This document shows, one piece after another, positions 36,056-36,680 of a DNA stretch of 64,000 bases. Every line of letters begins with the position of its first letter. Position 1 is the first letter of the stretch. The notes under the pieces were generated by a model. The model did no database searches, was not told where the DNA came from, and saw only the letters and a program-made list of their open reading frames with translations. The stretch comes from the human T2T-CHM13v2.0 reference genome, Homo sapiens, in assembly GCA_009914755.4 (NCBI GenBank), contig CP068257.2, positions 39,008,001-39,072,000 of the forward strand, given 5' to 3'. The translations under genes were made by a program, and so were the position numbers.

Positions 36056-36360
36056 TTTTTTTTTTTTTTTGAGACAGGGTCTCACTCTGTCACCCAGGCT
36101 GGAGCACAGTGGCACAATCACGGCTCATTACAGCCTTGACCTCCTGGGATCAAGCCATCCTACCACCTCAGCCTCCCAAGTGGCTAGGACTACAGGTGTG
36201 CACCACCATGTCTGGCTAATTTTTTTCTTTTTTTTTAATTTTTGTAGAGACAGGATTTTGCCATGTTGCCAATACTGGTCATGAACTCCTGGATGCAAGT
36301 GATCCTCCTGCTTTGACTTTCCAAAGTGCTATGATTACAGGCATGAGCCACTATTCAACC
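36056..36360 (-). mobile_element. Alu SINE, antisense, left member of an inverted Alu pair
   Basis: 'tttttttttttttgagacagggtctcactctgtcacccaggctggagcacagtggcacaatcacggctcattacagccttgacctcctgggatcaagccatcc...ccaaagtgctatgattacaggcatgagccact'. The ORFs at 35819-36284 are Alu-derived. Confidence 0.9.
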
Positions 36361-36385
36361 TCTTTTTTAAGACCACTAATCCACC

Positions 36386-36680
36386 TGGCATGGTAGGTCA
36401 TGCCTATAATCCTAGCACTTTGGGAGGCCAAGGTGAGGGGATCGCTTGAGTCCAGGAGCTCCAGGCCAGCGTGGCAGCATAGCAAGATCCCATCTCTACG
36501 AAAAATACAAAAATTAGCCAGGTGTGGTGGTGCACACCTGCAGTCACAGCTACCTGGGAGGCTGAGGCTGGAGGATTGCTTAGCCCAGGAGGTGGAGGTT
36601 GCAGTGAGCCATGATTGCACCACTGCACTCCAGCTTGGGTGACAGAGTGAGACACTGTCTCAAAACAAAACAAAAATAAA
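36386..36680 (+). mobile_element. Alu SINE, sense, right member of the inverted pair, 25 bp from the first
   Basis: 'ggcatggtaggtcatgcctataatcctagcactttgggaggccaaggtgaggggatcgcttgagtccaggagctccaggccagcgtggcagcatagcaagatcccatctctacgaaaaatacaaaaattagccaggtgtggtggtgcacacctgcagtc...gacactgtctcaaaacaaaacaaaaataaa'. The ORFs at 36351-36697 are Alu-derived. Confidence 0.9.

What the first reader, a model, noticed from the sequence alone, without database searches (positions are those of the whole stretch)
36056..36680. Head-to-head inverted Alu pair with only a 25-bp spacer, nested inside an older MaLR LTR
Two ~300-bp Alus, antisense at 36056-36360 and sense at 36386-36680, face each other across a 25-bp spacer. 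The spacer is itself LTR sequence, so these were two independent insertions into the same LTR. Inverted Alus this close together are known to be strongly depleted from the human genome. They can extrude hairpins or cruciforms, stimulate double-strand breaks and rearrangement, and when transcribed form long dsRNA that is a major ADAR A-to-I editing substrate. This locus is therefore a candidate site of instability or an RNA-editing hotspot if it lies in a transcribed intron.
Basis: partly seen in the sequence, partly recalled or inferred. Interest (0 to 1): 0.55.

Follow-up and report, generated by a model that had tools for sequence, protein, structure and literature searches.

The report
Old head-to-head Alu pair, now inert
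Two ancient Alu elements inserted in opposite orientations at the same endonuclease cut site inside an older LTR; the pair is real but ordinary, too diverged to threaten DNA stability, and could at most form a routine double-stranded RNA if transcribed.

Summary
An antisense Alu (36062-36360) and a sense Alu (36384-36678) face each other head to head inside one MaLR (MLT1-like) LTR (about 35824-36818).

Both are old AluJ-type copies, 16-19% diverged from consensus, with 1 and 3 CpGs left. The arms are 82% complementary over aligned bases, 76% counting gaps. The longest perfect run is 18 bp, which is no more alike than random Alu pairs in this window (rank 50 of 91).

New detail: the 23-bp spacer is two abutting target-site duplications, TCTTTTTT (left Alu) and AAGACCACTAATCCA (right Alu). 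Both Alus therefore entered at one T|A step of TCTTTTTT|AAGACC, on opposite strands. Removing them restores a colinear LTR.

- Published counts show depletion of inverted pairs at spacers of 24 bp or less. Head-to-head pairs at about 21-40 bp are over-represented (3,464 at 24-36 bp).
- Yeast data put 75-86% identity, a spacer over 20 bp and mismatches near the centre in the stable range.
- Estimated cruciform cost is +438 kcal/mol, against +34 for a perfect control.
- A long imperfect dsRNA hairpin (-404 kcal/mol) would form if transcribed. That is generic for inverted Alus, and transcription, editing, orthologues and population variants could not be tested.

The parts
35824..36053 (+). 5' part of the host MaLR (MLT1-like) LTR, starting TG...
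   Evidence: Aligns to a recalled MLT1 consensus and to a second LTR copy in the window at 58.2-58.6 kb.
36054..36061 (.). Left copy of the left Alu's target-site duplication, TCTTTTTT. It merges into the poly-T tail.
   Evidence: Identical to 36361-36368. It is LTR sequence that is single-copy in the paralogous LTR.
36062..36360 (-). Antisense AluJ-type element (AluJb-like). The poly-T (A-tail) is 36062-36070 and the body 36071-36360. The A-rich linker carries a 10-nt expansion.
   Evidence: BLAST against recalled consensuses scores AluJb 251 > AluJo 237 > AluSx 196. It is 19% diverged with 1 CpG left. Rfam 7SL match on the - strand.
36361..36368 (.). Right copy of the left Alu's target-site duplication, TCTTTTTT. 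This is the left part of the spacer.
   Evidence: Sequence read; reconstruction.
36369..36383 (.). Left copy of the right Alu's target-site duplication, AAGACCACTAATCCA. This is the right part of the spacer.
   Evidence: Matches AAGCACTCATCTCA at 36679-36692 (weak on its own). Matches the LTR sequence AAGGGCACTAATCC / AAGGGCCCTAACC in the consensus and the paralog.
36384..36678 (+). Sense AluJ-type element. The body is 36384-36661 and the A-rich tail 36662-36678. The first 2 nt of the head are missing or mutated.
   Evidence: BLAST scores AluJo 296, AluJb 287, AluSx 251. It is 16% diverged with 3 CpGs left. Rfam 7SL matches on the + strand.
36679..36692 (.). Right copy of the right Alu's target-site duplication, AAGCACTCATCTCA (decayed).
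36693..36818 (+). 3' part of the host MaLR LTR, ending ...AGAGCA.

Best explanation
Origin. An MLT1-type MaLR LTR carried the sequence ...CTC TCTTTTTT|AAGACCACTAATCCA TCC.... The T|A step is a good LINE-1 endonuclease site on both strands: 5'-TTTT/AA on the + strand and 5'-TCTT/AA on the - strand.

Two AluJ RNAs were reverse-transcribed into this same step at different times, one primed from each strand.
- Priming from the + strand nick gave the antisense Alu, with an 8-nt duplication (TCTTTTTT).
- Priming from the - strand nick gave the sense Alu, with a 15-nt duplication (AAGACCACTAATCCA).

Whichever came first, its head-side duplication kept the T|A site intact for the second insertion. The geometry forces a head-to-head pair whose spacer equals the sum of the two duplications (8 + 15 = 23 bp).

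Present state. The pair has since decayed as neutral DNA for tens of millions of years (inferred from AluJ type, 12-15% non-CpG divergence and near-complete CpG loss). The arms are now only 76-82% complementary, and the centre is degraded.
- It should not extrude a cruciform or stall forks under normal conditions.
- In long single-stranded DNA, or in an RNA that spans both arms, it would still fold into a long imperfect hairpin.
- As RNA that hairpin would be an ordinary ADAR substrate.

Shown: the anatomy, the duplications, LTR colinearity, arm identity and the folding energies. Inferred: the order-independent two-step retrotransposition, the age, and present-day DNA stability. Untested: transcription and editing.
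For: - Sequence and boundaries.
- Both arms are AluJ-type: (recalled consensus), with independent 7SL-model matches in opposite orientation.
- Removing both Alus and one copy of each duplication restores an LTR. It is colinear with a recalled MLT1 consensus and with an in-window paralog, without a gap at the junction.
- Independence of the arms: only 3 shared non-CpG derived bases against 32 and 22 private ones. Pair identity ranks 50 of 91.
- Stability: hairpins of -207.8 and -209.7 kcal/mol against a duplex of -855.2 give +438 kcal/mol to extrude. A perfect palindrome with the same spacer costs +34. The effective loop is 35 nt.
- Published thresholds: PMC10164571; PMC7999016: fork stalling in eukaryotic cells at a 12-bp but not a 52-bp spacer.
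- Class abundance: (PMC3215922).
- RNA hairpin: -404 kcal/mol, z -22.
Against: - The 8-nt duplication is low-complexity and abuts a T-run.
- The 15-nt duplication is decayed and not significant alone. An equal or better match occurred in 2,312 of 20,000 shuffles and in 1,066 of 20,000 random window 25-mers. The duplication model therefore rests mainly on LTR colinearity.
- No orthologous sequence, population variant, expression or editing data could be obtained. Age, fixation and present-day stability are inferences.
- Nearest-neighbour energies ignore supercoiling and proteins.
- Ait Saada 2023 shows that repeats of 75-86% identity can still drive rearrangement when embedded in long single-stranded DNA. 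Residual risk is not zero.
Confidence: 0.82

Rival explanations
1. Present-day fragile site. The pair extrudes hairpins or cruciforms in DNA, causes breaks, and is a hotspot of deletion or inversion.
For: Single strands fold into a very stable hairpin (DNA -210 kcal/mol, z -21). The spacer is short at 23 bp. Divergent repeats of 75-86% identity can cause rearrangements within long single-stranded DNA in yeast.
Against: - Arm identity is 76-82% with a longest perfect run of 18 bp.
- The centre is degraded, leaving a 35-nt loop, and extrusion costs +438 kcal/mol against +34 for a perfect control.
- Yeast data show about 40-fold loss from 12 to 20 bp of spacer, 58- to 1087-fold loss at 86-75% homology, and no instability in duplex DNA at 75%.
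- Head-to-head pairs with this spacing are abundant rather than excluded.
- The locus itself is intact: full-length arms, tails, duplications and a colinear LTR.
Confidence: 0.05
2. Notable RNA-editing hotspot or functional dsRNA element. The pair lies in a transcribed intron or UTR, forms a dsRNA of about 250-290 bp, and is heavily A-to-I edited, or influences splicing or circular-RNA formation, beyond what typical Alu pairs do.
For: - RNA hairpin of -404 kcal/mol, z -22.
- Adjacent arms favour intramolecular pairing. Most edited Alus have an inverted partner within 1 kb.
- The TA skew of the repeat-reduced window is negative in all eight 8-kb bins (-3.7% overall). That is the direction expected if the - strand is the sense strand of a germline-transcribed gene (PMC2817419).
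Against: - No transcription or editing data are available.
- No exon, CpG island or RNA gene was recognised in the window.
- The skew can also come from replication or from unmasked LINE content.
- Even if the pair is edited, this is the generic fate of more than 100,000 Alus, not a special property.
Confidence: 0.25
3. Single-event origin. The pair arose as an inverted duplication of one Alu, or by a twin-priming-like event, rather than by two insertions.
For: The arms are each other's best or near-best match for the left Alu (82.5% is the top of its range, 74-82.5%). Both are AluJ-type.
Against: - The flanks are colinear LTR, not inverted copies.
- Each arm has its own duplication, and the spacer is made of target sequence.
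- Only 3 shared non-CpG derived bases against 54 private ones.
- The left arm alone has a 10-nt linker expansion.
Confidence: 0.03
4. Alu-pair-derived microRNA precursor, like mir-1972. The hairpin tip is processed into small RNA.
For: The Rfam mir-1972 model matches 36336-36408 on both strands. Its consensus is itself the tip of a head-to-head Alu pair (UACAGGCAUGUGCCAC...[39]...GUGGCUCAUGCCUGUA).
Against: The score is 31.7 bits against a gathering score of 90. The match is explained by shared Alu heads. The loop is large and the stem is mismatched near the tip. No expression data are available.
Confidence: 0.02

Closest known systems
Head-to-head full-length Alu pairs with 21-40 / 24-36 bp spacers (Stenger et al. 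2001, as cited by Cook; Cook et al. 2011, 'head-to-head APE', PMC3215922)
   Same: Both arms are at least 275 bp and head to head. The 23-25 bp spacer lies at the lower edge of the reported excess (elevated from 23 to 50 bp, peak 27-30 bp). The pair sits in an L1-endonuclease-type T|A context.
   Different: The spacer is slightly shorter than the published peak because one duplication is only 8 nt. Cook et al. proposed nucleosomes, or L1 endonuclease docking on the Alu 5' end, as causes. At this locus the spacer is simply two abutting target-site duplications.
Unstable inverted Alu repeats in the yeast model (Lobachev et al. 2000, not readable here; Ait Saada et al. 2023, PMC10164571)
   Same: Two Alus of about 300 bp in inverted orientation with a short spacer.
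   Different: The model's fragile constructs are 94-100% identical with a 12-bp spacer. This pair is 76-82% identical, has a 23-bp spacer and mismatches at the centre. Those parameters were stable in duplex DNA in that system.
ADAR-edited intramolecular inverted-Alu dsRNA (for example PMC4053975)
   Same: Predicted long imperfect duplex between adjacent inverted Alus.
   Different: Neither transcription nor editing is shown here. Nothing distinguishes this pair from tens of thousands of others except the very short loop.
Rfam mir-1972 (RF04167), a microRNA precursor family built on a head-to-head Alu hairpin tip
   Same: Same architecture at the hairpin tip: Alu head, short spacer, inverted Alu head.
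   Different: The score is far below the gathering threshold (31.7 against 90 bits). This is not a member.
SINE insertion hotspots with overlapping target-site duplications, including reverse-orientation inserts (CanSINEs, PMC4084570)
   Same: Independent SINE insertions re-using one endonuclease target, in either orientation.
   Different: That report concerns different species carrying different inserts at one site. Here both inserts are retained in one genome.

Membership tests
Alu SINE | 7SL-derived dimeric body of about 280 bp with an A-rich linker | tested here: met
   Full-length alignments to Alu consensus sequences (consensus recalled). Rfam Metazoa_SRP sub-threshold matches to both elements in opposite orientation.
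Alu SINE | 3' A-rich tail and flanking target-site duplications at an L1-endonuclease-type site | tested here: met
   Tails lie at 36062-36070 (as poly-T) and 36662-36678. The duplications are TCTTTTTT x2 and AAGACCACTAATCCA / AAGCACTCATCTCA. The nick sites are TTTT/AA and TCTT/AA. The 15-nt duplication is not significant alone.
AluJ subfamily (old Alu) | Best match to the AluJ rather than AluS or AluY consensus, with high divergence and CpG decay | tested here: met
   AluJb/Jo scores exceed AluSx and AluY for both arms. Divergence is 19% and 16%, with 1 and 3 CpGs left.
MaLR (MLT1-type) LTR as host | LTR of about 350-400 bp with TG...CA ends and similarity to the family consensus or to other copies | tested here: met
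   The reconstructed 389-bp LTR is 75% identical to a recalled MLT1 consensus over positions 7-355. It is 70% identical and colinear with an in-window paralog. The subfamily and the LTR's own duplication were not tested.
Fragile inverted Alu repeats (yeast-defined) | Arm identity of roughly 86-94% or more | tested here: not met
   82% over aligned bases and 76% with gaps. Thresholds from PMC10164571.
Fragile inverted Alu repeats (yeast-defined) | Spacer of about 12-20 bp or less, with a perfectly matched centre | tested here: not met
   The spacer is 23 bp. The innermost inter-arm pair is 36354:36390, giving a 35-nt loop. One search reports that a single mismatch near the centre already reduces activity.
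Fragile inverted Alu repeats (yeast-defined) | Observed breaks or rearrangements at the locus | not testable with these tools
   No population, tumour or cross-species data were reachable. The locus itself is structurally intact.
Head-to-head full-length Alu pair class (Cook 2011 / Stenger 2001) | Both Alus 275-325 bp, heads facing, spacer about 21-50 bp | tested here: met
Class definition.
ADAR-edited inverted-Alu dsRNA | Long intramolecular duplex | tested here: met
   RNA minimum free energy -404.1 kcal/mol, z -22.
ADAR-edited inverted-Alu dsRNA | Both arms within one transcript, with clustered A-to-G mismatches in RNA-seq | not testable with these tools
   No expression or editing resource was available. 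The only hint is a weak strand-skew signal.
mir-1972 (RF04167) | Score at or above the Rfam gathering threshold | tested here: not met
   31.7 bits against 90.

The most novel reading that the evidence does not exclude
This locus may show, in clear form, the general cause of a published but unexplained excess of head-to-head Alu pairs with 24-36 bp spacers (Cook et al. 2011).

The L1 endonuclease target TTTT|AA is nearly palindromic at its T|A core. After one Alu inserts, the site survives next to the Alu head, at a distance of one duplication. A second insertion primed from the opposite strand at the same step must then give a head-to-head pair whose spacer equals duplication 1 plus duplication 2.

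With duplications of 7-20 bp (typically about 14-15), the predicted spacer peak is about 28-30 bp, which matches the published peak at 27-30 bp. If so, part of the 'exclusion' of very close inverted Alus reflects insertion geometry rather than loss through instability.

I did not find this explanation in the searchable library. Stenger 2001 and Lobachev 2000 could not be read, so it may already be in print.
Probability: 0.45. Interest if true: 0.35.

Novelty: already known. Interest (0 to 1): 0.15.

Why it matters
For this locus, little. It is one of several thousand head-to-head Alu pairs, about one per 0.9 Mb going by the published count of 3,464. By sequence criteria it is past the stage at which inverted repeats endanger duplex DNA.

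Two modest points are worth keeping:
1. 'Close inverted Alus are depleted' should not be applied blindly. Orientation (head-to-head versus tail-to-tail) and a threshold of about 20-24 bp matter, and arm identity matters more than proximity.
2. The spacer here decomposes exactly into two target-site duplications meeting at one T|A step. This suggests a simple, testable insertion-geometry explanation for a genome-wide pattern that was previously attributed to nucleosomes or endonuclease docking.

Tried and rejected
1. Orthologue and occurrence hunt.
   - Exact look-up of the spacer-spanning ORF (36351-36623, - strand) found nothing on record.
   - A protein search with the LTR/Alu junction ORF (35819-36139) returned only generic Alu-derived ORFs covering 21-35% of the query.
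   - Two metagenome scans with 45-nt and 30-nt spacer patterns gave 0 hits.
   - Age and fixation across primates therefore could not be tested.
2. Other head-to-head pairs, to test spacer = duplication 1 + duplication 2.
   - A degenerate head/gap/head pattern found 0 hits in viral contigs.
   - It found one hit in bacterial genome assemblies. This is a 540-bp human-like contaminant contig (L001) with a 24-bp spacer, TGAAATTTTTCT|AAATAAGAACCG.
   - The spacer has a central T-run/A-run step as predicted. However, the right Alu is cut off and the left duplication is not clean, so the case is inconclusive.
3. Gene context.
   - ORFs of 90 aa or more are repeat-derived or low-complexity.
   - There is no CpG island and GC is 41%.
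   - The only Rfam gathering-level hits are two other Alus scoring as SRP RNA.
   - I prepared 34 packs of non-repeat ORFs for a Pfam scan but did not run them. Single exons rarely score, and the result would not change the verdict.
4. Strand skew as a proxy for transcription. It is consistent with - strand transcription but is confounded by replication skew and unmasked repeats, so I treat it only as a hint.
5. Gene conversion or homogenisation between the arms: rejected.
6. Inverted duplication or twin priming: rejected.
7. Lobachev 2000 and Stenger 2001 are not held in the library. Their results are cited only through PMC3215922, PMC10164571 and PMC7999016.
8. The first attempt at the cruciform calculation timed out. 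It was rerun successfully.

Full report
**1. What is there**

The sequence at 36.0-36.7 kb holds two Alu elements facing each other head to head.

- The left one is antisense. After a T-run it reads GAGACAGGGTCTCACTCTGTCACCCAGGCTGGAG... and ends ...GAGCCACTATTCAACC at 36360.
- The right one is sense. It starts CCTGGCATGGTAGGTCATGCC at 36384 and ends ...GAGACACTGTCTC followed by an A-rich tail.

The repeat finder reports three colinear inverted segments of 75-84% complementarity. A gapped reverse-complement alignment gives 237 matches, 51 mismatches and 24 gap columns. That is 82% identity over aligned bases and 76% counting gaps, with a longest perfect run of 18 bp.

Both arms are called AluJ-type rather than AluS or AluY. 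They are 19% and 16% diverged from the AluJ consensus, about 12-15% outside CpG sites, and only 1 and 3 CpGs remain.

Independently of my recalled consensus, Rfam's 7SL/SRP model matches both elements below threshold, in opposite orientations.
- the sense Alu starts at 36384, so the spacer is 23 bp (36361-36383);
- the first eight bases of the T-run region (36054-36061) belong to a target-site duplication.

**2. Host element and the nature of the spacer**

I removed both Alus and one copy of each presumed duplication. The resulting 389-bp sequence aligns end to end (positions 7-355, 75% identity) with an MLT1-type MaLR LTR consensus that I recalled.

Because that consensus is from memory, I looked for an internal control. 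A second LTR of the same family lies at about 58.2-58.6 kb on the - strand. It aligns colinearly with the reconstruction over positions 12-367 at 70% identity. It passes straight through the reconstructed junction: GGGGTCTCT-TTTTAGAAGGGCCCTAACCTCATTCATGAGG against CTGTCTCTCTTTTTTAAGACCACTAATC-CATCCATGGAAG.

More specifically, it is two abutting target-site duplications.

| Piece | Spacer copy | Other copy |
|---|---|---|
| TCTTTTTT (left Alu) | 36361-36368 | 36054-36061, merged into the left Alu's poly-T |
| AAGACCACTAATCCA (right Alu) | 36369-36383 | AAGCACTCATCTCA at 36679-36692, after the right Alu's tail |

The second duplication is decayed and is not significant on its own. The case rests on LTR colinearity.

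**3. How the pair arose (inferred from the anatomy)**

The empty site read ...TCTTTTTT|AAGACCACTAATCCA....

- For the antisense Alu, the first-strand nick must have been on the + strand at TTTT/AA. The T-run primed on the Alu poly(A), which is why the left duplication copy runs into the poly-T.
- For the sense Alu, the nick must have been on the - strand at 5'-GGTCTT/AAAAAA, which is the same T|A step.

The two insertions therefore used one endonuclease site, from opposite strands. Either order gives the observed structure, because the first insertion leaves the T|A step intact beside its head. The geometry forces a head-to-head pair with a spacer equal to duplication 1 plus duplication 2 (8 + 15 = 23).

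A single-event origin (inverted duplication, twin priming) is rejected for four reasons:
- the flanks are colinear rather than inverted;
- each arm has its own duplication;
- the arms share only 3 non-CpG derived bases against 32 and 22 private ones;
- their identity (82.5%) ranks 50th of 91 Alu-Alu pairs in the window.

**4. Is it dangerous DNA?**

Single strands fold into a long imperfect hairpin (DNA -210.5 kcal/mol, z -21). Extrusion from duplex DNA is a different matter.

- The two hairpins total -417.5 kcal/mol against -855.2 for the duplex, a cost of +438 kcal/mol.
- A perfect palindrome built from the right Alu with the same spacer costs +34 kcal/mol.
- The innermost inter-arm pair is 36354:36390, so the effective loop is 35 nt.

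Published yeast data (PMC10164571) report:
- about a 40-fold drop in Alu-repeat-induced recombination when the spacer grows from 12 to 20 bp;
- 15-, 58- and 1087-fold drops in rearrangement at 94%, 86% and 75% homology;
- complete loss of instability in duplex DNA at 75% homology;
- a strong effect of even one mismatch near the centre.

A review (PMC7999016) notes that fork stalling in eukaryotic cells was seen with a 12-bp but not a 52-bp spacer.

This pair fails on identity, on spacer and on the state of its centre. The locus itself is intact: full-length arms, tails, duplications and a colinear LTR. One caveat remains. The same 2023 paper shows that repeats of 75-86% identity can still drive rearrangements inside very long single-stranded DNA.

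**5. Is such a pair rare?**

Cook et al. 2011 (PMC3215922) analysed all full-length Alu pairs in the human genome.

- Inverted pairs are strongly under-represented at spacers of 24 bp or less (inverted:direct ratio 0.076).
- Head-to-head pairs are over-represented at 24-36 bp. This is the only range where the ratio exceeds 1, with 3,464 pairs and a peak at 27-30 bp.
- The excess extends from 23 to 50 bp. They cite Stenger 2001 for the same excess at 21-40 bp.

This pair falls at the lower edge of that abundant class. That works out to roughly one such pair per 0.9 Mb.

Cook et al. also caution that attributing all of the low ratio at short spacers to instability may be an overestimate. For the head-to-head excess they suggested nucleosomes, or L1 endonuclease docking on the Alu 5' end.

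The anatomy seen here suggests a simpler cause, namely opposite-strand re-use of one T|A site. This predicts spacers equal to the sum of two duplications (7-20 bp each), or about 28-30 bp at the mode. I did not find this explanation in the searchable library. I could not read Stenger 2001 or Lobachev 2000.

My one attempt to sample other pairs yielded a single truncated contaminant contig. It has a suggestive 12|12 spacer, TGAAATTTTTCT|AAATAAGAACCG, but no clean duplication. That case is inconclusive.

**6. RNA**

If one transcript spans both arms, it would fold into a duplex of about 250 bp with mismatches (-404 kcal/mol, z -22). That is the standard ADAR substrate. It is also generic: 108,838 edited Alus are listed in PMC4053975, 78% of them with an inverted partner within 1 kb.

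Whether this region is transcribed could not be determined.
- No exon-like ORF, CpG island or RNA gene was recognised.
- The only hint is a consistently negative TA skew on the + strand, -3.7% overall and negative in all eight bins.
- That is the direction expected if the - strand is the sense strand of a germline-transcribed gene (PMC2817419). Replication skew or unmasked LINE content could give the same signal.

Rfam's mir-1972 model is itself the tip of a head-to-head Alu hairpin. It matches the centre of the pair at 31.7 bits against a threshold of 90. This is a resemblance, not membership.

**7. Verdict**

The structure, the LTR context and the independent insertions are right. The depletion premise and the instability inference are not supported. 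The editing idea is plausible but generic and untested.
- The feature is of an already known kind and is ordinary. Interest is low (0.15).
- The most novel reading still open is the duplication-sum explanation of the head-to-head spacer peak. It needs a genome-wide test that these tools cannot run.

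Noticed in passing
L001 (NZ_NRSJ01000143.1, 540 bp), whole contig: A scaffold labelled Halochromatium glycolicum DSM 11080 consists of primate-type sequence. It holds a full antisense AluS-like element, a 24-bp spacer and the start of a sense Alu. This is almost certainly human or primate contamination of a bacterial assembly.
   Followed up: partly
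window 58150-58620 (- strand): A second MaLR (MLT1-like) LTR, 70% identical and colinear with the host LTR of the Alu pair. It served as an internal control for the empty-site reconstruction.
   Followed up: yes
window 36336-36408: The Rfam mir-1972 family consensus is itself the tip of a head-to-head Alu hairpin (Alu head, loop of about 39 nt, inverted Alu head). Any such Alu pair gives a sub-threshold hit on both strands.
   Followed up: partly
window 18479-18595 (-) and 51014-51161 (+): Two other Alus score above the Rfam gathering threshold for Metazoa_SRP (77.9 and 71.3 bits against 70). An automatic annotation would mislabel them as SRP RNA genes (Alu positions).
   Followed up: no
window 1-64000: After masking Alus and simple repeats, the TA skew (T-A)/(T+A) is negative in all eight 8-kb bins (-0.6% to -5.3%; -3.7% overall). 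The GC skew is noisy (-1.4% overall). This is compatible with the whole window lying in a gene transcribed from the - strand, or with replication or LINE-content bias.
   Followed up: partly
window 61319-61677: A 181-bp unit is present as two tandem copies with 93% matches. The origin was not examined.
   Followed up: no
window 646-1131, 63119-63338, 17764-18280, 39965-40341: Large simple-sequence arrays: purine-rich AGAG/GAAA arrays near both ends of the window, a 0.5-kb AT-rich (TATATA...) array abutting the Alu at 18304-18596, and a TATC array of about 0.4 kb.
   Followed up: no
window 35400-35530: By eye, the sequence just upstream of the host LTR (...TTAGGACACGCACATCTTTAGGGGCCATTACTCTGCCTGCCACA) resembles the 3' end of another LTR-type repeat. 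This was not verified.
   Followed up: no
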